A DNA stretch of 44,080 nt, from positions 1 through 44,080 of IMG/VR virus record IMGVR_UViG_2609460218_000014. One strand, 5' to 3'. The notes under the pieces are model-generated. The model was not told where the DNA came from and did not search any database. It saw nothing but the letters and a program-made list of their open reading frames with translations. The position numbers and the translations under genes are program-made. This document shows positions 18,101 to 25,566 of the stretch, piece after piece; within the stretch, counting starts at the first letter, position 1, and every line of letters begins with the position of its first letter. The stretch is from a virus. Its lineage: Duplodnaviria; Heunggongvirae; Uroviricota; Caudoviricetes.

Positions 18101-18964
18101 ATGATCCGCAGTATGACCGCCTACGCCCGGCGTGAAATCAAGGGTGAATGGGGGAGCGCAACCTGGGAAATGCGCTCGGTAAACCAGCGTTATCTGGAAA
18201 CTTACTTTCGTCTGCCGGAGCAGTTCCGTAGCCTTGAACCTGTCGTTCGCGAGCGTATTCGTTCTCGCCTGACGCGCGGTAAAGTGGAATGTANCCTGCG
18301 CTATGAGCCAGATGTTAGCGCACAAGGTGAGCTGATCCTCAATGAAAAACTGGCTAAACAGCTGGTAACTGCCGCGAACTGGGTAAAAATGCAGAGTGAC
18401 GAAGGGGAAATCAACCCGGTTGATATTCTGCGCTGGCCGGGCGTGATGGCAGNCCAGGAGCAGGATCTCGACGCCATTGCCGCTGAAATTCTCGCGGCGC
18501 TGGATGGTACGCTGGACGACTTTATTGTCGCGCGCGAAACCGAAGGTCAGGCACTGAAAGCATTGATCGAGCAGCGTCTGGAAGGCGTCACCGCCGAAGT
18601 GGTCAAAGTCCGCGCCCATATGCCGGAAATCCTGCAATGGCAGCGTGAGCGTCTGGTCGCGAAGCTGGAAGATGCTCAGGTTCAGTTGGAAAACAACCGT
18701 CTGGAGCAGGAGTTGGTTCTGCTGGCACAACGAATTGACGTTGCCGAAGAACTGGACCGCCTGGAAGCGCATGTCAAAGAGACCTACAACATTCTGAAGA
18801 AAAAAGAAGCCGTTGGTCGTCGTCTGGACTTTATGATGCAGGAATTCAACCGCGAGTCGAACACTCTTGCGTCGAAATCTATCAATGCCGAAGTGACAAA
18901 CTCCGCCATCGAGCTGAAAGTGTTGATTGAGCAGATGCGCGAGCAGATTCAGAACATTGAGTAG
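18101..18964 (+). CDS. yicC: YicC-family stress-induced protein
   Basis: 287 aa, MIRSMTAYARREIKGEWGSATWEMRSVNQRYLE...; conserved neighbour of rph. Confidence 0.9.
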   Translation: MIRSMTAYARREIKGEWGSATWEMRSVNQRYLETYFRLPEQFRSLEPVVRERIRSRLTRGKVECXLRYEPDVSAQGELILNEKLAKQLVTAANWVKMQSDEGEINPVDILRWPGVMAXQEQDLDAIAAEILAALDGTLDDFIVARETEGQALKALIEQRLEGVTAEVVKVRAHMPEILQWQRERLVAKLEDAQVQLENNRLEQELVLLAQRIDVAEELDRLEAHVKETYNILKKKEAVGRRLDFMMQEFNRESNTLASKSINAEVTNSAIELKVLIEQMREQIQNIE

Positions 18965-19004
18965 CGTATCACCTCATATCATTCAGAATCACCAACCAGA
19001 AGAA

Positions 19005-19028
19005 GCCCGCTAATCACGGGCTTTTTTC
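19005..19028 (+). terminator. Intrinsic terminator of yicC
   Basis: Hairpin gcccg-ctaatca-cgggc followed by tttttt. Confidence 0.7.
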
Positions 19029-19140
19029 ATATCACAAAGTTGCAGTTAGCATCATAAAAGCGCATATTTCTCGTGTACCCAATAGTGTCCCTATGAGGCA
19101 GAGGCATTAAGTAGATAGGGTACGCAACCAATGAGGTGAT

Positions 19141-20396
19141 ATGGGCAAGCTAACAGACATTCAGATCAAGGCCTGGATAAAGGCCGGAACAAGGTTCGAG
19201 GGTAAATCGGACGGTAACGGTTTATATTTGCGCTATCGCACTACTGACACGTCCCCATCATGGCGTTTCCGCTACCGCTTCGCTGGCAAGCCTCGTGTTA
19301 TGACAATTGGCGCGTATGGCGTTATCTCACTGGCTAAAGCCGGGAGATCACCCGAGAGCTGGCTGCTCGTGTTTCTCTGGGGTATGACGTTGCCGGTGAG
19401 AAGCAGGAGCGAAAAGCCGCATTAAAAGCCCAGTTGGAAGCCGACCAGCATGACAAAACAGTGTCCGAAGTAGCTGAAGACTATTTTAAGAAGAAAGTAC
19501 TGGGTACATGGAAACACCCCGACATCCTCCGCCGTCGTCTGGCGAAAGACATTAATCCTCGCATAGGTCAGAAAAAGGTTAAGGACGTCAAACCCCGAGA
19601 TATTGATGCCTTGCTTCAGGCCATCTTAAAACGTGGTGCGCCATCTATTGCTAATGACGTCTTGCGCTGGATACGTCGTATCTTTGACCATGCGATCAAG
19701 CTGGGGATGATTGAGGTTAACCCCGCTGCTGCCTTTGATATGAGTGACGCGGGCGGTAAGGAAACATCTCGTGAACGTTGGTTAACCAGGCAGGAACTGG
19801 TTCAATTCTTTGAAGCCATGCGAATGGCAAAAGGCTTTAGTCGTGAGAACGAGTTAACTCTAAAGCTGCTGCTGGTCACTTGCGTGAGAAAGATGGAACT
19901 GTGCGCCGCACGCTGGAGCGAGTTCGATTTAGCCAACGGCATTTGGTACTTACCGGGCGAACGCACAAAGACAGGCGACGGGATTGATATTCCACTGCCA
20001 AAACAGGCTATCGAATGGTTGGAGGAGCTGCGCCTTCTCTCTTGTAACAGCAAATGGGTATTACCTGCGCGAAAACAACAGCATCGCATGATCCCCCATA
20101 TTCAGGAAAGCACCCTACCCGTTGCGCTGGCGAAGGTTAAGCATGAGATGCCTGGTGTACCGAACTTCACTATTCACGACCTTAGGCGCACCGCACGCAC
20201 CCATCTCGAAGCGTTAGGTGTGAATCCCATTGTTGCTGAGCGTTGCCTTAATCACCGCATCAAAGGCGTCGAGGGCATCTACAACCGTCACCAATATTTA
20301 AACGAACGGCGGGAAGCGCTGGCCATGCTGGGCAACCTGATGGAAGCCTTAGAGCGTGGCGAGGAATACAACGTTCAACCATTGAGGAAAGCATGA
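19141..20396 (+). CDS. Tyrosine integrase, P4 family (arm-binding N-domain plus catalytic domain); frameshifted in this sequence
   Basis: Track ORFs 19141..19425 and 19434..20396; N-terminus KLTDIQIKAW...GNGLYLRYRTT...WRFRYRFAGK and C-terminal HDLRRTARTHL...YNRHQYLNERR are typical. One missing C in a CCC run near 19337 would restore ISLAKAREITRELAARVSLGYDVAGEKQERKAA and a single ~418-aa ORF. Confidence 0.85.
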
Positions 20397-20433
20397 TGAT
20401 TCAGTGGATAGGTTTTCAATATTGTTTTTTTGC

Positions 20434-20546
20434 CTGTCCCACGCGTCCCATCTGTCCCGTTTTGTAAAGATAAAATAAATTCAATCAGTTACGAACACTA
20501 ACATGGGACAAAACACGGGACAGGACGGGACAAATTTTTCTGTCCC
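20434..20546. repeat. Array of about 7 GGGACA/TGTCCC hexamer repeats in both orientations (putative protein-binding sites)
   Basis: Three TGTCCC-type copies at about 10-bp spacing (20434-20459), an AT-rich spacer, then three GGGACA copies at 10-12 bp spacing and an inverted pair gggacaaatttttctgtccc (20527..20546); lies between int and orf179. Confidence 0.6.
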
Positions 20547-20586
20547 GTCCTCAAATTGAATAAACAATAACCGATAAGGGCAATAA

Positions 20587-21126
20587 ATGAATGATAACAA
20601 CAGTGTCCCAACGATTACGCTTCATGACCCTAAGCCGTGGTATGAGGTAGACCCATTGGTAATAAATGCTATGGAACTGACCGGCGCATCATATGAAGAA
20701 CTTAACGCCGGGGTATCTCTGTGCGTTGACGTTTGGGACGCCGATAGTCCAAATACTTTCCTTATAAATTGCAGGATCAAATGGGTTAAATACACATATG
20801 ACCTCACAGGTTTCGCCATTGCTCGTTATTTTTGGACTAACCCTGAGAAAGACACCCTGCTAAGTGAGGTAGTTACTACTGAATATCAGCGTAGGAGAGA
20901 ATCTCTTGAGCTGGAGATAAAAAAGGAGCGGGAAAAGAACGCCGGTTACGGGAAAACAAACCCGAAAAAAGATGAGATTATTGAAGAGTTTAAATTGTGG
21001 AAAGAAAAATACCCACAAGGCAGTTGTAAACAATTTCATCAACAGCTAACACGGCAAACAAAAAGAGGGGAAAAAGTCCCTTCAGTTAGAAGCATACAAG
21101 ACTGGACGAAAATACTGCGCAATTAA
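20587..21126 (+). CDS. Hypothetical protein (179 aa), island-encoded, no family recognised
   Basis: ORF with a good SD (aaggg 8 nt upstream of ATG); acidic N-half, lysine-rich charged C-half (EIKKEREKNAGYGKTNPKKDEIIEEFKLWKEKYPQ); located between int and alpA. Confidence 0.55.
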   Translation: MNDNNSVPTITLHDPKPWYEVDPLVINAMELTGASYEELNAGVSLCVDVWDADSPNTFLINCRIKWVKYTYDLTGFAIARYFWTNPEKDTLLSEVVTTEYQRRRESLELEIKKEREKNAGYGKTNPKKDEIIEEFKLWKEKYPQGSCKQFHQQLTRQTKRGEKVPSVRSIQDWTKILRN

Positions 21127-21197
21127 AAACAACTGCGCAATTAGCTCGGTATCCTCTCAGTACGTCGCAAATAGACGCGTTCACAGAGGAATTAAAT

Positions 21198-21392
21198 ATG
21201 AAAAATGATTTTCCCTTATCTGGCTACGTTCGCCCTTCTCGGGTGAGCGAATTCCTAGATATAAGCCCGGCCACAATGTGGCGCTGGGCAGCAAAGAGTG
21301 AGTTTCCAAAAAGCCGTAAGCTGAGTTCCCGCGTAACAGTTTTTGATGCCGCAGAAATCAGACGTTGGCTGGCGGCGAAAAGTGCAGATTAA
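21198..21392 (+). CDS. alpA: AlpA-family transcriptional regulator / excisionase-like winged-helix protein
   Basis: 64 aa; VRPSRVSEFLDISPATMWRWAAKSEFPKSRKLSSRVTVFDAAEIRRWL matches the AlpA signature; SD gagga upstream. Confidence 0.85.
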   Translation: MKNDFPLSGYVRPSRVSEFLDISPATMWRWAAKSEFPKSRKLSSRVTVFDAAEIRRWLAAKSAD

Positions 21393-21407
21393 TGGAGGTG
21401 GTGAGTT

Positions 21408-21884
21408 ATGAGCTTAATCGCTGAGATTCAAACGGCAGCATCNGGTAAGTGGCCTGCCGTGTTACGTGCTTTAGGCGTCGACGTGCCTGAAAAGCAGGCG
21501 CACATCCCTTGTCCCGTATGTGGCGGCAAAGACCGGTTTCACTTTAAACACGACGATGTAGGTTCGAGTTACTGCCGGGGGTGTAATAAGTGGCGCGACG
21601 GATTACAGCTAGCTCGAGATTGTGGGGCCTCTGTTTCTCAGATCGCCAATGCCGCTGGAATAAACACAACGCGCCACGCGCCGCTAGGCAGGCGAAAGGT
21701 CAGCTTGCCACCACACACAACTGCGTTACTGGCTGGGAAGCAGAAATTAAGGGAGCAGGGTGCAGAATGGATAAAAGTGTGGCTGGACTGTCAGGAGGCA
21801 GCAATTTTATGGCACGAATATGAAAAAAACGGCAGCCCCTTTGAGGAGAGCCGCCGTCTTTATGGACTACATAGACAACTTTAA
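21408..21884 (+). CDS. Primase-type zinc-ribbon protein (Cys-X2-Cys-X17-Cys-X2-Cys), no catalytic primase domain evident
   Basis: 158 aa; CPVCGGKDRFHFKHDDVGSSYCRGC as in primase-helicase zinc-binding domains; strong SD ggaggtg; start overlaps alpA stop. Confidence 0.7.
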   Translation: MSLIAEIQTAAXGKWPAVLRALGVDVPEKQAHIPCPVCGGKDRFHFKHDDVGSSYCRGCNKWRDGLQLARDCGASVSQIANAAGINTTRHAPLGRRKVSLPPHTTALLAGKQKLREQGAEWIKVWLDCQEAAILWHEYEKNGSPFEESRRLYGLHRQL

Positions 21885-21892
21885 TTCTTTGC

Positions 21893-21916
21893 GCTTCCCG
21901 GTTGCCCCCGGGAAGC
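21893..21916 (+). other. Perfect 9-bp stem hairpin between the zinc-ribbon gene and the helicase gene
   Basis: gcttcccgg-ttgccc-ccgggaagc with no following T-run; in the 56-bp gap between the two genes. Confidence 0.4.
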
Positions 21917-21940
21917 AAAACAACAAGGGACATAATCACC

Positions 21941-23377
21941 ATGTCAGAGAATACTGTAACTCACCTACCTCTCAAGTCAACCATGAAAGAACCGGTGTCC
22001 GGTGCGCCAGCACAGGCGGCTAAGTATGATTCTATGCCGCTGGCAAAGATGCAACCCGGCGAACGCATCGCCGCGTTTGTTGCAAAGACTGGCCGTTATT
22101 CACTTCATCGGGCAAGTGATACCTTGTACCGTTTTGATGGTGCTATCTGGCGGGCAATCAGCGATTCAGCTGTGAAAAGTGATTTAGCAGACTTCTACAT
22201 GACCCGCGGCTTTCAACCCGGTGCCAGTGTCTTTGAAAGCGACGCGCGAGCGCTGAAGATATATTCATCGACCAAACAATCTCCAGAGATGGCGGAACCA
22301 AAAGCCGGGGTAATCGCCTTTGCCAACGGCGTTTACTCAATCATAGACGGTTCATTTTCCAGCCATTGTGCGGAAAACTGGTTGCGCTCACATAACGGCA
22401 TAGACTATGCAGCAGCACTCCCCGGAGAGACACTGAGCGGCAGTGCCCCACATTTTAGCAAGTGGCTAGCGCACAATGCCGGTAATGATGAAGCGAAGGC
22501 CAAGCGGATACTGGCGGCTCTGTATATGGTTCTGACTCATCGCTACGAATGGCAGCTATACGTTGAGGTAACTGGCAAAGGTGGTAGCGGTAAGAGTGTA
22601 TTTATGTCTCTGTGCAGATTGCTATCAGGGGAAGACGGCTCAAAGGCTACAACCTTACACGCGCTGCGCGACTCAATGGCTCTAGAAACATTGATTGATG
22701 CCAGGCTCATTACCATGAGTGATCAGCCCGCATATAGCGGCGATTGTGCGAATTTAAAAGCCATTACCGGCGGTGACTCCATTTTCATCAATCCCAAGTA
22801 CAAGAAGGGGTTCGATGCGAAAATTAACGCCGTTGTAGTCGTGGCTAACAACGAACCTGCTGTATTTACTGAGCATAACGGGGGCATATCCCGCCGCCGG
22901 GTACTGTTTAAGTTTGGTGAACCGGTAGAAAGACCTGACCCTGAGTTTATGGCGAAGATAAAAACTGAATTGCCGGTAATCGTGCGTCACTTGCTCAAGG
23001 AATTGGATGATACTACCGCAAAAAGTCTGCTCATCCAGCAACGAGACTCAGAGGAATCGTTTGACGCTAAAGCGGAGGCCAGTAGCATTTACTCCTTCGT
23101 TAAACACCTGGACCCACTGCCAGCGCCTACAGGTATGCGCATGGGTGGCAAGGCATCATCCTCAAACGCGGAGCGGCCCAGAGAGTTCCTTTACCATGCG
23201 TATTTGGCATTTATGCAATACAACGGGTTCCAGAATCCACTTTCGGTTCTGAAATTCAGGCAAGCTGTTATTGCGATAATGAAAGAGCGCGGGCACGAGT
23301 TCGCGGATAAAAGGGACTCCGTTGGTCTCCGCTACAACGTGGAGTTGGCCGAATCAGCCAGCGAATGGCTTCCGTAA
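21941..23377 (+). CDS. SF3 (D5/P4-type) replicative helicase / NTPase, the C-terminal domain family of phage-plasmid primases
   Basis: Track ORF 21902..23377; likely start MSENTVTHLPL; Walker A VTGKGGSGKSVF, Walker B-like LITMSD, sensor-like VVVVANNEP; directly upstream of the iteron region. Confidence 0.8.
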   Translation: MSENTVTHLPLKSTMKEPVSGAPAQAAKYDSMPLAKMQPGERIAAFVAKTGRYSLHRASDTLYRFDGAIWRAISDSAVKSDLADFYMTRGFQPGASVFESDARALKIYSSTKQSPEMAEPKAGVIAFANGVYSIIDGSFSSHCAENWLRSHNGIDYAAALPGETLSGSAPHFSKWLAHNAGNDEAKAKRILAALYMVLTHRYEWQLYVEVTGKGGSGKSVFMSLCRLLSGEDGSKATTLHALRDSMALETLIDARLITMSDQPAYSGDCANLKAITGGDSIFINPKYKKGFDAKINAVVVVANNEPAVFTEHNGGISRRRVLFKFGEPVERPDPEFMAKIKTELPVIVRHLLKELDDTTAKSLLIQQRDSEESFDAKAEASSIYSFVKHLDPLPAPTGMRMGGKASSSNAERPREFLYHAYLAFMQYNGFQNPLSVLKFRQAVIAIMKERGHEFADKRDSVGLRYNVELAESASEWLP

Positions 23378-23397
23378 CATACTTTCAACATTAAAAG

Positions 23398-23425
23398 CTG
23401 GGGCGCATGATTGCGCCCTTTTTTA
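23398..23425 (+). terminator. Intrinsic terminator after the helicase gene
   Basis: gggcgca-tgat-tgcgccc followed by tttttt. Confidence 0.7.
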
Positions 23426-23466
23426 ATTCCATCGATAGATCAGAATATTTAGNTTTTTTTATGAAA

Positions 23467-23690
23467 GTCCTACATGTCTTACACCAAATGAAATTAAATT
23501 ATATATAACAATAAATTAGATAATGTAGGACCTTAAAAATATCCTACACAGGTCCTACATAACTCCTGCACTCGAAGCCTCGTAGTGTAGGGTTTAAGGA
23601 AGCCCCTCGCCAGTCCTACACAAGTCCTGCACTTTCTAACAAATTGTTTTAAATGATTTTTTTAATGGAGAATGTAGGAGTGTAGGACAT
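23467..23690. repeat. Iteron cluster (about 8 copies of GTCCTACA / TGTAGGAC in both orientations) next to an AT-rich stretch: putative island replication origin
   Basis: Copies at about 23467, 23523, 23543, 23552, 23585, 23613, 23672, 23681; preceded by an AT-rich segment (23440-23520); no ORF of 60 aa or more on either strand between 23378 and 24087. Confidence 0.6.
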
Positions 23691-24195
23691 GAAGGACTTT
23701 CCAGGAAAAACTATATTTTGAATATTTGAGCCTAAAAAATGGACACCCTTGCGCTACGCGCCGCTAGGCAGGGAAAGTGGTTTTCATAACATGTATTTAA
23801 CAATCGCATTCCCATTCGGAACCAGCGGGCCGGAATGATCCTGATACAGGCGTTCAGCATGGAGTGAGAATCAACGTTTTTTGATGCCCTACTGACCCCA
23901 GATTAATCTTTGGTCGGTAGCGGGAAGCCTTCGTTCTGGTCAGGGTAATGTCAGGGTGATGCTTACGTTTTATGACTATTTTAGTTAGCAATAGTTAGCA
24001 ACCTACTCAAATCAAAACTTCTCAAAGTTAATTCCTAAAACGAAAAAGCCCCCACATTTCTGTAGGGGCCGTTTCGTCATTCTGCGCTTGATGGTCGGAA
24101 GGATGGCCGACAAATATATACTATCTCTTTATGTACTCACGAACCAGTACGATAGTACAATAAGCCGTCAATTCTTCAAAATGATGGTGATAGCG

Positions 24196-24588
24196 ATGAA
24201 CGAAGTAGATTCAATTCTGGCCGAGCAGAAAAGAGCCGCAGAACAACGCCGCTTGGCTAATGAGAAGAAGCGCCATCCATCCGGCCTGTACGCCGTTGGT
24301 GATGGGTGGTATGTGAAGCAAATCGAAGAGCTTCACTCCCCGCTTGGTCTTAGCAAGGTGGTTCTGGTAAGCCCTGATGATGTTTGTGTGAGATATCAGC
24401 GCCAATATGGCAAAGCACTCACCACTGACAAATTGAAGGAATGGAGCAGGGACGGGAACTTCCCTTTGCCGCGCTCTATTAATGGGGTTATCGGTTGGGA
24501 ATCGAATGTTGTGACCAATGGCCTGAATGAACTGAGCAAAGCAGCCGGTCGAGGTTATACCAGTATTACACGAGGGTTCGCACGATGA
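24196..24588 (+). CDS. Hypothetical protein (track ORF 24088..24588, 166 aa; likely start at MNEVD giving about 130 aa), first gene of cargo cassette
   Basis: Protein-like composition; SD-like ggtgat upstream of the internal ATG; stop overlaps the next ORF start (ATGA). No family recognised. Confidence 0.5.
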   Translation: MNEVDSILAEQKRAAEQRRLANEKKRHPSGLYAVGDGWYVKQIEELHSPLGLSKVVLVSPDDVCVRYQRQYGKALTTDKLKEWSRDGNFPLPRSINGVIGWESNVVTNGLNELSKAAGRGYTSITRGFAR

Positions 24589-24782
24589 GCAAAGAATCTG
24601 TAATGGCGGCATTGAGAAAGGCGCGTGAAGGCAATATCTTTGGCGGTACTGGTCAGGCCGAATTTAACAAAAATTTTTACGCTGGCCGCGTCACCAAAAC
24701 AGATGGTGTTAGTAAGACCGACAGTAACGAGCCGATGAACCAAAAGGCATTTAATGCCCGGTTCTATGCGGGGAAATCATGA
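24585..24782 (+). CDS. Hypothetical small protein (65 aa) with internal duplicated N-x-x-F-Y-A-G-[RK] motif
   Basis: ATGA overlap with the upstream ORF and SD gaggg; NKNFYAGRV and NARFYAGKS repeat within the protein. Confidence 0.5.
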   Translation: MSKESVMAALRKAREGNIFGGTGQAEFNKNFYAGRVTKTDGVSKTDSNEPMNQKAFNARFYAGKS

Positions 24783-24841
24783 CTGAGGCATATGCGCTCT
24801 GTGTGATGCTGTACTGCTACCTGATGCTTATCTGCCCGTAA
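24779..24841 (+). CDS. Possible 20-aa hydrophobic Cys-rich peptide (MTEAYALCVMLYCYLMLICP)
   Basis: Start overlaps the ORF65 stop (ATGA), SD-like gggga upstream, followed by a hairpin terminator. Too short for any compositional statistics. Confidence 0.3.
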   Translation: MTEAYALCVMLYCYLMLICP

Positions 24842-24860
24842 CCTTCCCTCACTGCCAAGC

Positions 24861-24884
24861 GCCGCCGAAAGGCGGTTTCTTTTG
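24861..24884 (+). terminator. Putative short intrinsic terminator/attenuator after the coupled ORFs
   Basis: ccgcc-gaaa-ggcgg (GNRA-type loop) followed by tttcttttg. Confidence 0.4.
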
Positions 24885-24901
24885 ACCTGATGGAGTCTGT
24901 C

Positions 24902-25183
24902 ATGCTGAATGTGAACCGCTTGCCCAACAGCACCCGCCTACAGATTGCCGCCGCTATTGCTGAAGAGGTTTACGCGCTGGATCTGGATGATGAGGCGTTA
25001 ATTCATGAGCTGCGTCGTTATGGATTCAGCCAGGCTTATGCGGAAGCAATGACTTTCAGATTTATGACGCCAGCCTTTGAAATCGCAGATCCACGGCGCG
25101 AACGTAAAACAAAAATGCCAGCGCCCACCTCTCANCCCGAATGGGTTTTTGTTGATAATGTTTTAATGAAGATCACGGCGTGA
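24902..25183 (+). CDS. Hypothetical protein (track ORF 24890..25183, 97 aa; likely start at MLNVNRL)
   Basis: SD ggag 9 nt upstream of the second ATG; contains one N; last ORF before the island's right end. No family recognised. Confidence 0.5.
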   Translation: MLNVNRLPNSTRLQIAAAIAEEVYALDLDDEALIHELRRYGFSQAYAEAMTFRFMTPAFEIADPRRERKTKMPAPTSXPEWVFVDNVLMKITA

Positions 25184-25382
25184 CTTACACAAAATTACAA
25201 TTGGTCATAAATCACACAATAAAAATTGTAATCCCTGTAAATCCATGTACCCATACGTGTACACAAGCAAAACAAGAAAAACAAAAATCATTTAAATATC
25301 AATACATATAACCCACAATTCAATATTCAGATTCAATATTGAGTAACTCGTAACACTAATTCTTACTTTTCAGCCTTCACAA

Positions 25383-25416
25383 ATGCCGCCCACTCAAACA
25401 GAGCGGCATTTTTCTT
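25383..25416 (+). terminator. Putative intrinsic terminator near the right end of the island
   Basis: atgccgc-(13-nt loop)-gcggcat followed by tttttct. Confidence 0.4.
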
Positions 25417-25503
25417 CCCCGCAACTTCAATTCTGTTTTGCGTGCCTGCTCCAGATTTTGCGATGTTTTTTTGCCCAGCACACTGAGAACGTGAGATACT
25501 CAC

Positions 25504-25523
25504 AACTGTATATAAATACAGTT
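25504..25523 (+). promoter_or_regulatory. LexA (SOS) box in the dinD promoter
   Basis: aactgtatataaatacagtt, a perfect palindrome matching the CTGT-N8-ACAG LexA consensus, about 45 bp upstream of the dinD start. Confidence 0.85.
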
Positions 25524-25566
25524 ACAGATTTACTTTCTTTGCAATCGATATCACATGGAGTGGGCA

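What the first reader, a model, noticed from the sequence alone, without database searches (positions are those of the whole stretch)
24088..25183. Cargo cassette of uncharacterised small ORFs downstream of the putative ori: candidate helper-interference or anti-phage module
After the iteron region the island carries only small ORFs of about 130, 65, 20 and 93 aa. The first three are chained by ATGA stop/start overlaps, implying translational coupling and stoichiometric co-expression, and are followed by a hairpin. I recognise none of them. In satellites the post-ori position holds helper-exploitation and defence cargo, so this is the most likely site of a novel system in the window.
Basis: inference. 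Interest (0 to 1): 0.8.

Follow-up and report, generated by a model that had tools for sequence, protein, structure and literature searches.

The report
Conserved end-module of mini phage-satellite islands
The four small genes are real, but they are the one constant part of a family of tiny satellite-like islands in E. coli and its relatives rather than swappable cargo, so they probably serve the island's own spread, and no known protein resembles them.

Summary
ORFs of 130, 65, 20 and 93 aa lie at 24196-25183, the first three joined by ATGA overlaps, with a hairpin before the fourth. All four are under purifying selection (dN/dS 0.07-0.34).

The 'variable cargo / defence hotspot' reading is not supported. 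The window holds a 6.4-kb island (integrase, AlpA, primase-helicase, iterons) inserted in the 3' end of yicC. The same ORF1-ORF2-ORF3-hairpin-ORF4 set ends every related island I could retrieve, in E. coli, Citrobacter, Kluyvera, Shimwellia, Atlantibacter and Salmonella. Integrase, attachment site, AlpA and replication module all differ among these islands. The truly variable slot lies upstream, between the iterons and ORF1, and is empty here.

The protein families are tiny and orphan, with no Pfam, PHROG, NCBIfam, PADLOC or PDB match. ORF1 shows a weak AlpA/Xis-type winged helix-turn-helix. ORF4 is a three-helix bundle followed by a tail. A 27-nt hairpin sequence is the most conserved element of the module.

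Best reading: this is the helper-interface module, probably for packaging or late functions, of a PICMI/PICI-like mini-satellite family. That function is inferred, not shown.

The parts
18945..25350 (+). Whole island (about 6.4 kb), inserted in the 3' end of yicC. Order: int (frameshifted here), a 179-aa ORF, AlpA-type HTH, primase Zn-ribbon, DUF5906/P4-type helicase, iterons, then the four-gene end module.
   Evidence: Annotated twin locus L001. NCBIfam primase_Cterm hit. Island-free E. coli genomes match only from window 25328 onward, and that match overlaps their yicC 3' end.
24047..24070 (-). Terminator-type hairpin on the minus strand, just upstream of the ORF1 promoter region. It is kept in diverged islands with a different stem sequence.
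   Evidence: Each allele folds into a strong hairpin followed by a U-run on the minus strand.
24077..24113 (.). Conserved non-coding block (CTGCGCTTGATGG...) between that hairpin and the ORF1 promoter. Its role is unknown.
   Evidence: Alignment A8.
24166..24190 (+). Likely ORF1 promoter -10 box and ribosome-binding site. The -10 is TACAAT here and TGGTATAAT in relatives. The ribosome-binding block ATGGTGA is invariant.
   Evidence: The promoter assignment is an inference from a consensus.
24196..24588 (+). ORF1, 130 aa, basic (pI 9.5). It has an N-terminal helix, a conserved core and a central AlpA/Xis/PrtN-like winged helix-turn-helix (about residues 57-101).
   Evidence: Family alignment. 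dN/dS 0.08-0.16. AlphaFold2 pLDDT 56, with helices at 60-71 and 77-86. hhalign against AlpA: probability 80%, E 1.4e-5. One family member hits PrtN at E 0.16. Only 5 hits among 1.84 billion representative proteins.
24585..24782 (+). ORF2, 65 aa, basic (pI 9.9). It has an N-terminal helix and two copies of the motif Q-x-x-[FY]-N-x-x-F-Y-x-G. Its start overlaps the ORF1 stop as ATGA.
24779..24841 (+). ORF3, a 20-aa hydrophobic, Cys-rich micropeptide (MTEAYALCVMLYCYLMLICP), with an ATGA overlap onto ORF2.
   Evidence: Three alleles, all 20 aa and all with the overlap. dN/dS about 0.3. GRAVY +1.55.
24857..24883 (+). Invariant 27-nt element AAGCGCCGCCGAAAGGCGGTTTCTTTT. It forms a GNRA-loop hairpin plus T-run and looks like a terminator. 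It is the longest invariant run in the module.
   Evidence: Flanking synonymous sites are saturated. The element is absent from IMG/VR contigs and gives no significant match in the phage records.
24902..25183 (+). ORF4, 93 aa. It has a very conserved N-terminal three-helix bundle (residues 9-55), a variable basic/proline linker, and a conserved C-terminal W-V-F-V-D-N-V-L beta-hairpin.
25184..25350 (.). AT-rich right arm of the island plus attR, which carries the displaced original yicC 3' end.

Best explanation
**What it is**
- ORF1-ORF2-ORF3, the hairpin and ORF4 form the conserved end module of a family of very small islands (6.4-8.5 kb).
- These islands carry int, AlpA and a primase, resemble PICMI/PICI satellites, and occur in Enterobacteriaceae.
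- The module stays while integrase, attachment site, AlpA, replication genes and the genes in the middle are exchanged. I therefore read it as the part that connects the island to its helper.

**Proposed working (inferred)**
- After the helper triggers excision and replication, a weak promoter at about 24166 gives one mRNA. ORF1, ORF2 and ORF3 are made from it in coupled amounts.
- ORF1 binds DNA through an AlpA/Xis-type winged helix-turn-helix, the same broad fold class used by lambda Nu1 and by PICI Rpp proteins.
- ORF2 is its small partner.
- Together with ORF4 they mark island DNA for the helper's packaging machinery, or switch on or divert helper late functions. This follows the logic of Rpp or of a satellite TerS.
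- ORF4 lies behind the invariant hairpin, so it is made only on read-through or from its own start.

**Shown**
- The genes are real and under selection.
- The module is constant and its alleles reassort.
- The families are orphan.
- The hairpin is invariant.

**Inferred**
- The satellite lifestyle.
- DNA binding by ORF1.
- Any role in packaging or late functions.
For: **The module is constant**
- It is present in all retrieved relatives at two attachment sites. These relatives carry DUF5906, Toprim+DUF927 or DUF3987 replication modules.
- In E. coli complete genomes, 33 carry the close integrase, 33 carry the ORF4-attR junction, and 33 carry ORF1 through ORF4.

**Selection and reassortment**
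- All four genes are under purifying selection.
- Alleles of ORF1, ORF2 and ORF4 reassort independently, as expected for parts that each must be kept.

**Link to packaging**
- Larger relatives place a DUF5681 gene just upstream of ORF1.
- In phages, DUF5681 homologues sit at genome ends or two genes before the large terminase. Some are annotated as small terminase. This makes the region a packaging zone.

**Link to phage-derived elements**
- ORF1-ORF2 also occur with DUF5681 on a 13.3-kb circular element that carries tape-measure-like and tail genes.

**ORF1 fold**
- The ORF1 profile aligns to AlpA's recognition helix and wing: probability 80%, E 1.4e-5.
- AlphaFold2 places two helices at the same position.

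**Architecture**
- Size and gene order parallel PICMI115, which is 6,110 bp with int-iolg-alpA-up1-prim-up2 (PMC10803314).
- They also parallel Gram-negative PICIs, where Rpp and cos lie after the ori (PMC6739421; the 2022 preprint on helper-embedded satellites).
Against: **No evidence of a helper or of packaging**
- All metagenome and genome copies found are integrated.
- No phage in 50,697 records or in IMG/VR shares the proteins or the 27-mer.

**No link to Rpp or lambda packaging**
- There is no sequence relation to RppC or any other solved structure.
- The island has no lambda-type cosN.

**The ORF1 fold call is weak**
- No Pfam hit passes threshold.
- The model has pLDDT 56.
- The fold search was uninformative.

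**Precedents point the other way**
- In PICMIs the genes in the equivalent position are dispensable for transfer, and one is a defence gene.
- Islands at yicC in other bacteria are mobilised by conjugation, not by phages.
Confidence: 0.45

Rival explanations
1. The module is an anti-phage defence or helper-interference system. The cassette would protect the host, or cripple the helper, and would not be needed for island transfer. It would be constant only because this island family happens to be built around it.
For: In PICMIs the slot between primase and att is a defence hotspot, and up2 there is a new defence gene that is dispensable for transfer (PMC10803314). The allele diversity and reassortment seen here also fit an arms race. 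The orphan status of the proteins is typical of new defence genes.
Against: There is no PADLOC hit. The slot is not variable, because the same four genes end every relative, while the truly variable slot lies upstream. ORF4's N-terminal domain is under very strong purifying selection, with dN 0.04-0.10 against a saturated dS. There are no enzymatic or sensor domains. The proteins are 20-130 aa.
Confidence: 0.2
2. The module is regulatory. ORF1 would be a second AlpA/PrtN/Xis-type factor: either a transcription activator or repressor of island or helper genes, or a directionality factor acting at the neighbouring attR. ORF2 to ORF4 would be its modulators. It would not be a packaging device.
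For: ORF1 shows AlpA-like similarity and a weak PrtN hit. A second AlpA-family gene at the far end of PICI EcCIMP1 can stand in for the helper's excisionase (PMC11773190). yicC-specific SGI1-like elements carry an RdfM-like directionality factor next to attR (PMC8409611). ORF4 alleles track the attachment site.
Against: The module is 56-73% identical between islands whose integrases share only 25% identity and whose AlpA proteins share 21%. It therefore does not co-diverge with the recombination module. ORF1-ORF2 also occur on an element with a different recombinase and no ORF4.
Confidence: 0.15
3. The module is for stability or addiction. It would be a small toxin-antitoxin-like operon that keeps the island in the chromosome. 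ORF3 would be a hydrophobic membrane toxin, or ORF2 a toxin, and ORF1 a DNA-binding antitoxin or autoregulator. It may include an antisense RNA.
For: The operon is tight with ATGA overlaps. ORF3 is a 20-aa hydrophobic peptide (GRAVY +1.55), similar in size to known small membrane toxins; that comparison is from my own knowledge. A conserved minus-strand terminator lies just upstream of ORF1 and could end a small antisense or divergent RNA.
Against: No toxin or antitoxin family is hit. The gene sizes and the order of three or four genes do not fit a standard type. In one relative the ORF3 stop codon is lost without loss of the other genes (L017). No minus-strand promoter is conserved in the window's allele.
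Confidence: 0.1
4. The island is a conjugatively mobilised element rather than a phage satellite. The module would encode relaxosome accessory proteins that bind a nearby origin of transfer and recruit a helper plasmid's relaxase.
For: The 3' end of yicC is the classic target of Vibrio mobilisable islands and of SGI1-like elements that ride on SXT/R391 or IncC elements. Some of these replicate (PMC8409611). Small DNA-binding accessory proteins beside a cis site would fit ORF1 and the invariant hairpin.
Against: There is no MobI, relaxase or mating-pair gene hit. No plasmid shares the non-coding DNA. The only plasmid hit is a 13.3-kb non-mobilisable element with phage tail genes. Relatives carry a phage-type DUF5681 gene. 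The architecture matches PICI/PICMI.
Confidence: 0.1
5. The ORFs are spurious: chance reading frames in non-coding island DNA.
For: They have no database family. ORF2 and ORF3 are very short.
Against: Frames, lengths and overlaps are conserved across alleles with saturated synonymous divergence. dN/dS is 0.07-0.34 for all four. They recur in six genera.
Confidence: 0.01

Closest known systems
PICMI (phage-inducible chromosomal minimalist islands of Vibrionaceae; PICMI115, PMC10803314)
   Same: Both are about 6 kb. Both have an int, AlpA and primase core and unidirectional genes, with a few small unknown genes between the primase and the attachment site. Neither has capsid or terminase genes. 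In the yhbW-site relatives, a gene overlaps the integrase stop, like PICMI's iolg.
   Different: The host family differs, and the attachment sites are yicC or yhbW-ubiV rather than fis. The end genes have no detectable similarity to any known family. The end genes here are constant across the family, whereas the PICMI slot is variable and holds defence systems. No helper or packaging data exist here.
Gram-negative PICIs with Rpp (EcCICFT073 RppA, RppC; PMC6739421)
   Same: The order int-alpA-primase-ori is followed by a small post-ori gene set. Rpp is a small protein (144-153 aa) with a winged helix-turn-helix that retargets the helper's small terminase. ORF1 is 130 aa with a putative winged helix-turn-helix.
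   Different: There is no sequence match to RppC in the PDB searches. The putative DNA-binding motif is central in ORF1, not N-terminal. The island has no lambda-type cosN. It is half the size of a PICI and has no capsid gene.
AlpA / Xis / PrtN (HTH_17-type) winged-helix proteins
   Same: ORF1 residues 76-110 align with AlpA's recognition helix, the G-x-F-P-x-P turn and the wing. One family member weakly hits PrtN.
   Different: ORF1 is twice as long, with extra N-terminal and C-terminal parts. It does not reach any Pfam threshold. The island already has a canonical AlpA beside int.
Mobilisable genomic islands and SGI1-like elements at the 3' end of yicC (PMC8409611)
   Same: They share the target gene and the restoration of its 3' end. 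They also have small ORFs immediately upstream of attR.
   Different: Those elements are 23-37 kb and carry mpsA, traG, traN and sgaC. They are mobilised by IncC or SXT. None of those genes is present here.
P4-like satellites
   Same: Both have a P4-type primase-helicase (TIGR01613 hit), a tyrosine integrase and a small helper-manipulating operon.
   Different: No homologue of psu, delta, sid, epsilon or the cos region was detected. No C4/isrK RNA was found.

Membership tests
Rpp (redirecting phage packaging) proteins of Gram-negative PICIs | Sequence homology to RppA, RppB or RppC | tested here: not met
   Single-sequence and profile searches of all PDB chains, which include RppC, gave nothing below E = 0.5. 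Pfam and PHROG gave no hit.
Rpp (redirecting phage packaging) proteins of Gram-negative PICIs | N-terminal winged helix-turn-helix followed by a C-terminal coiled-coil dimerisation region | tested here: inconclusive
   The AlphaFold2 model is of low confidence (pLDDT 56). The helix-turn-helix lies at residues 60-86 and a long helix lies at the N terminus, so the order is reversed.
Rpp (redirecting phage packaging) proteins of Gram-negative PICIs | Island carries a lambda/phi80-type cos site (cosN conserved) | tested here: not met
   No GGGCGGCGACCT-like site, allowing up to 2 mismatches, lies inside the island. The count of hits in the window is as expected by chance.
Rpp (redirecting phage packaging) proteins of Gram-negative PICIs | Binds the helper's small terminase and blocks helper packaging | not testable with these tools
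   This needs two-hybrid or pull-down assays and phage titres.
AlpA/Xis/PrtN-type (HTH_17) winged-helix DNA-binding proteins (ORF1) | Pfam HTH_17, Phage_AlpA or PrtN match above the curated threshold | tested here: not met
   The window protein gives no family hit. One of 9 members hits PF11112 at E = 0.16.
AlpA/Xis/PrtN-type (HTH_17) winged-helix DNA-binding proteins (ORF1) | Profile-profile similarity over the recognition helix and wing | tested here: met
   hhalign of the ORF1 family against the island AlpA proteins gives probability 80% and E 1.4e-5 over 35 columns. The controls, ORF4 against AlpA and ORF4 against ORF1, give probability below 1%.
PICMI | Small island (about 5-7 kb) with an int, alpA and primase core and no morphogenesis genes | tested here: met
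   for the 6.4-kb island.
PICMI | Integration next to fis; Vibrionaceae hosts | tested here: not met
   This island integrates in the yicC 3' end of Enterobacteriaceae.
PICMI | Packaged as concatemers in full-size capsids of a (virulent) helper | not testable with these tools
   No virion-derived or circular copy was found.
PICMI | The slot between primase and att is a variable accessory or defence hotspot | tested here: not met
   ORF1 to ORF4 are constant. Only the stretch between the iterons and ORF1 varies.
Gram-negative PICI | int, alpA and pri-rep followed by ori, all in one direction | tested here: met
Gram-negative PICI | Packaging or morphogenesis genes (terS, rpp, capsid) after the ori | tested here: not met
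   None is recognisable in the window island. A DUF5681 gene, a possible small terminase, is present only in larger relatives.
Known anti-phage defence systems | Match to a PADLOC model or defence-associated domain | tested here: not met
   The best PADLOC E-values are 0.03-0.04, on ORF2 only.
Conjugatively mobilised islands at yicC (MGI / SGI1-like) | MobI, MpsA, TraG, TraN or SgaC homologues, or an RdfM-like gene | tested here: inconclusive
   No Pfam or NCBIfam hit to these genes was found in the island. RdfM itself could not be compared because no sequence was at hand.

The most novel reading that the evidence does not exclude
The four genes and the invariant 27-nt hairpin would form a previously unknown, self-contained helper-hijacking device. 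It would let a 6.4-kb island with no terminase, capsid or cos-like sequence be packaged by an as-yet unidentified enterobacterial phage. It would define a new family of minimal satellites across at least six enterobacterial genera. In this reading, ORF1/ORF2 recognise the hairpin element on island DNA and ORF4 couples it to the helper machinery.
Probability: 0.2. Interest if true: 0.8.

Novelty: new variant of a known kind. Interest (0 to 1): 0.55.

Why it matters
**What it could show**
- If the module is the helper interface, it would show how the smallest class of satellites in E. coli and its relatives gets itself packaged. These islands have no recognisable packaging gene.
- The same question was left open for the Vibrio PICMIs, where no cos or pac site and no redirecting gene was found.

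**A practical marker**
- The module gives a sequence marker (ORF1, ORF4 and the 27-mer) for finding these islands.
- Such islands are annotated only as 'hypothetical proteins' in the records examined.

**If it is a defence or stability device instead**
- It would still be a new one, because its proteins have no known relatives.

**Testability**
- The cassette is only 1.1 kb and sits in a genetically tractable host.

Tried and rejected
**Family and structure searches that found nothing**
- Pfam, PHROGs, NCBIfam and PADLOC scans of all four ORFs gave nothing significant.
- PDB searches with single sequences and with profiles gave nothing.
- An exhaustive HMM search of 1.84 billion representative proteins with the ORF1 profile found only the family itself, 5 hits.
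- The ORF1 structure model was too poor (pLDDT 56), so its Foldseek PDB search was meaningless.

**Searches for a helper or a shared cis site**
- No lambda cosN lies in the island.
- The cassette has no DNA similarity to phages.
- The only plasmid match is one 13.3-kb element.
- tblastn of ORF1 against phages gave one spurious hit inside an AdhE-like gene.
- The 27-mer has no exact match in IMG/VR contigs and gives only non-significant partial matches (E ≥ 0.3) in phage records.
- Rfam found no family in the island.

**Specific homology ideas rejected**
- ORF1 is not related to the gene between DUF5681 and the large terminase in phages.
- ORF1 showed no match to lambda Nu1.
- ORF4 is not related to AlpA or to ORF1.
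- The ORF1-like hit in a Clostridia genome lies in the C-terminal part of an unannotated 415-aa ORF and is a short-motif coincidence.

**Search for an excised or packaged form**
- All 11 metagenome contigs showed either the integrated form with chromosomal flanks or island fragments, with no attP junction.
- One 8.45-kb contig spans exactly one island, but it ends in a 30-nt inverted repeat with no terminal overlap, so it is not evidence of a circle.

**Other ideas dropped**
- The high nucleotide identity in the 5' half of ORF4 is not a hidden cis site. dS there is 0.5-2.8, so it reflects protein constraint.
- The 166-aa TTG-start version of ORF1 is rejected, because the upstream part is not conserved as coding.
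- An MT836812 'phage' of 8.7 kb carrying DUF5681 turned out to be an unrelated high-GC phage fragment.
Full report
**1. What is in the window**

The region lies in an E. coli chromosome segment. A near-identical annotated copy is in strain 30EVA2, at 98.6% identity over 23380-25560. There the gene order is slmA-pyrE-rph-yicC, then an island, then dinD-yicG-ligB.

The island carries these genes in order:
- a tyrosine integrase
- a 179-aa hypothetical protein
- an AlpA-type helix-turn-helix protein
- a primase zinc-ribbon protein
- a DUF5906/P4-type primase-helicase (TIGR01613, E 1.4e-23)
- iteron-like GTCCTACA repeats at about 23454-23710
- the ORFs of the finding

Island-free E. coli genomes match the window only from 25328 onward, and that match overlaps their yicC 3' end. 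The island therefore spans about 18945-25350 (6.4 kb). It is inserted in the 3' end of yicC and supplies a replacement end. There is no tRNA in the window.

**2. The observation**

One correction applies. The ORF listed from the TTG at 24088 (166 aa) really starts at the ATG at 24196 (130 aa).
- Homologues of 130-134 aa begin there.
- An ATGGTGA block 5-11 nt upstream of that ATG is invariant.
- The sequence further upstream has insertions, deletions and little conservation.

ORF4 starts at the ATG at 24902, giving 93 aa.

**3. The ORFs are genes**

I compared the window allele with two diverged alleles: L003 (E. coli, another attachment site) and L012 (a Citrobacter-type island).
- dN/dS is 0.10-0.16 for ORF1, 0.13-0.34 for ORF2, about 0.3 for ORF3 and 0.07-0.20 for ORF4.
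- dS is often above 1 or saturated.
- The 20-aa ORF3 exists as three alleles: MTEAYALCVMLYCYLMLICP, MIGTFALCALCFCWLMALRP and M[MT]EAYALCLMTYCYLMVYRP.
- All three are 20 codons long and all start in an ATGA overlap with ORF2.

The 'spurious ORF' rival is excluded.

**4. The module is constant, not variable cargo**

Counts in 5,426 complete E. coli genomes:
- 37 carry some part of the module.
- 27 + 6 carry ORF1 through ORF4.
- 33 carry a close full-length copy of the integrase.
- 33 carry the ORF4-attR junction.
- The accessions listed for these three groups overlap.

Among these islands, similarity to the window often begins only at about 23752, 23881 or 24234. This is because the replication modules differ, for example Toprim+DUF927 in L004.

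A second island group sits between yhbW and ubiV.
- Its integrase is only 25% identical and its AlpA only 21% identical to the window's.
- Its replication module is DUF3987/YfjI or Toprim+DUF927.
- It ends with the same ORF1-ORF2-ORF3-hairpin-ORF4 set, at 56-73% amino-acid identity.

Carriers include E. coli, Citrobacter, Kluyvera, Shimwellia, Atlantibacter and Salmonella.

What varies is the stretch between the replication gene or iterons and ORF1:
- nothing, as in the window
- a 138-aa ORF
- that ORF plus a TM2-domain protein
- TM2, a 137-aa ORF, DUF5681 and two ORFs of 52-62 aa

Alleles of ORF1, ORF2 and ORF4 reassort.
- L006 has ORF1 at 98%, ORF2 at 51% and ORF4 at 88% identity to the window.
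- L017 has ORF1 at 98% and ORF4 at 68%.

So each gene is retained while recombination shuffles variants.

ORF1-ORF2 without ORF4 also occur elsewhere:
- on an IS5-bounded fragment (L002, L010)
- on a 13.3-kb circular element, NZ_CP055032.1, that carries VapE, toprim, a tyrosine recombinase, ParA, DUF5681, a tape-measure-like gene and a tail gene

**5. What the proteins look like**

None matches Pfam, PHROGs, NCBIfam, PADLOC or PDB sequences. The families are very small.

| Family | Result of homologue search |
|---|---|
| ORF1 | 15 clusters at 90% identity |
| ORF1 | 5 hits among 1.84 billion representative proteins |
| ORF4 | 14 clusters |
| ORF2 | 20 clusters |

*ORF1* (pI 9.5) has a variable N-terminal helix and a strongly conserved core: RHPSGLY..GDGW ... 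SPLGLS..LVSP[DE][DQ]VC.RY.RQYGK.LT...LK.W...GNFPLPRS.NGV.GW.
- A profile-profile comparison aligns residues 76-110 with the recognition helix, the G-x-[FLM]-P-K turn (GNFPLP in ORF1) and the wing of the island AlpA proteins. Probability is 80% and E is 1.4e-5.
- AlphaFold2 puts helices at 60-71 and 77-86, but overall confidence is low (pLDDT 56).
- One family member weakly hits PrtN (E 0.16).
- I therefore call ORF1 a probable AlpA/Xis/PrtN-type winged-helix DNA-binding protein, with moderate confidence.

*ORF2* (pI 9.9) has an N-terminal helix and two copies of the motif Q-x-x-[FY]-N-x-x-F-Y-x-G.

*ORF3* is a hydrophobic, Cys-rich 20-mer (GRAVY +1.55).

*ORF4* has three parts.
- A confidently modelled three-helix bundle covers residues 9-55, with pLDDT 87-91.
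- A variable basic/proline linker follows.
- A conserved C-terminal beta-hairpin ends the protein.

**6. Cis elements**

The longest run that is invariant among the three diverged alleles, over the whole 1.3-kb module, is the 27-nt AAGCGCCGCCGAAAGGCGGTTTCTTTT at 24857-24883.
- This is the hairpin plus its T-run.
- The next longest invariant run is 11 nt.
- Neighbouring synonymous sites are saturated, and a plain terminator can tolerate compensating stem changes. This argues for sequence-specific recognition as well.
- What recognises it is unknown.
- It has no exact match in IMG/VR contigs and no significant match in phage records.

Upstream of ORF1 there are three further features.
- A minus-strand terminator-type hairpin lies at 24047-24070. 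It is retained in all alleles with a different stem sequence.
- A conserved block, CTGCGCTTGATGG, follows it.
- A -10-like box follows that: TACAAT here and TGGTATAAT in relatives.

A small minus-strand RNA is possible but not shown.

**7. Why I favour a helper-interface role**

- The architecture matches the Gram-negative PICIs and the Vibrio PICMIs.
- In PICIs the post-ori zone holds packaging functions.
- In the larger relatives of this family, the gene just upstream of ORF1 is DUF5681.
- Phage homologues of DUF5681 lie at genome ends or two genes upstream of the large terminase. Some are annotated as small terminase.
- A module that is kept while everything else is exchanged, and whose alleles diversify and reassort, is what one expects of the part that must fit a shared helper.
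- The winged-helix class proposed for ORF1 is the one used by lambda Nu1 and by Rpp.

All of this is inference. I found no helper, no packaged or circular form, and no shared cis site with any phage.

**8. Rivals**

- *Defence or interference cargo.* The PICMI precedent supports it: up2 is a defence gene that is dispensable for transfer. The constancy of the module and the absence of any defence signature weaken it here.
- *A purely regulatory or directionality role.* The AlpA-like motif fits. So do the precedents of a second AlpA in EcCIMP1 and of RdfM next to attR in yicC elements. Against it, the module does not co-diverge with the integrase.
- *An addiction module.* The tight operon and the hydrophobic micropeptide suggest it. 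Nothing else does.
- *Conjugative mobilisation.* The yicC target suggests it. The phage-type neighbours and the lack of any transfer gene argue against it.

**9. Verdict**

- The finding is real and its proteins are unknown to every library tried.
- It is the conserved signature of a family of mini-islands rather than a cargo slot.
- I did not find it described in the papers I searched. Searches by protein accession returned nothing.
- I rate it as a new variant of a known kind (PICI/PICMI-type satellites), of moderate to good interest.
- The mechanism is still open.

Noticed in passing
window 24047-24113 (minus strand): A strong terminator-type hairpin with a U-run on the minus strand lies just upstream of the ORF1 promoter. 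It is retained in diverged islands with a different stem sequence and is followed by a conserved block (CCATCAAGCGCAG on the minus strand). It could be the 3' end of a small divergent or antisense RNA. No conserved minus-strand promoter was found in the window's allele.
   Followed up: partly
window 19141-20396: The island integrase is frameshifted near codon 67 relative to its 418-aa relatives. One base is missing in a C/G run, giving AKAGRSPES instead of AKAREITRE. The window also has N bases at three places in the island. This is either an assembly error or a decaying copy.
   Followed up: partly
window 18940-18965 and 25328-25350: The island integrates in the 3' end of yicC and supplies a substitute end. 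The same gene is targeted by Vibrio mobilisable islands and by SGI1-like elements (PMC8409611).
   Followed up: partly
L011 (NZ_CP142070.1, yicC site): About 50 E. coli genomes carry a different, larger (about 12.5 kb) PICI-like island at the same yicC site. It has a distant integrase, AntA/B, Icd-like, TOPRIM-DUF927, SSB and PerC genes, and two copies of dinD flank its right end. The annotation shows no obvious ORF1-ORF4 set, but this was not checked by tblastn.
   Followed up: no
L019 (NZ_CP055032.1, 13,291-bp circular 'plasmid' of Shigella flexneri): This small circular element combines VapE, toprim, a tyrosine recombinase, ParA and an Arc-family protein with a tape-measure-like gene, a tail gene and DUF5681, and also carries ORF1-ORF2. 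IS5-bounded fragments of it are inserted in a prophage tail region (L002) and in caiC-fixA (L010).
   Followed up: partly
L033 (Kosakonia phage Kc259, 1466-4177) and L034 (Escherichia phage sortregn): DUF5681 proteins in phages sit at genome ends, two genes upstream of the large terminase and portal. Some Burkholderia phage records call them small terminase. The family may be an unrecognised small terminase or packaging accessory protein.
   Followed up: partly
window 24585-24782 (ORF2): ORF2 carries a duplicated 11-residue motif, Q-x-x-[FY]-N-x-x-F-Y-x-G, which is conserved in all alleles. The window copy lacks three residues (ARE) of a short AREARE repeat that most relatives have.
   Followed up: no
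L003 2264-2944; L012 5203-5382: In the yhbW-site islands, the gene after int overlaps the integrase stop by 8 nt. This recalls the 'integrase-overlapping gene' iolg, which PICMI115 needs for excision. The window island instead has a separate 179-aa ORF with no known relatives.
   Followed up: no
L037 ends / L035 1418 and 9869: The yhbW-site island is bounded by a perfect 30-nt inverted repeat (GACAAACTGACATTACTGACAAAAGCCCCC). This is unusual for an integrase-borne island, and it breaks assemblies exactly at the island ends.
   Followed up: no
window 23889-24004: The empty 'variable slot' of this island holds a 32-bp imperfect palindrome (23889-23920) and two tandem duplications (GTCAGGGTAAT/GTCAGGGTGAT and TAGTTAGCAA x2). 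These are shared with the Kluyvera and Shimwellia copies but not with other alleles.
   Followed up: no
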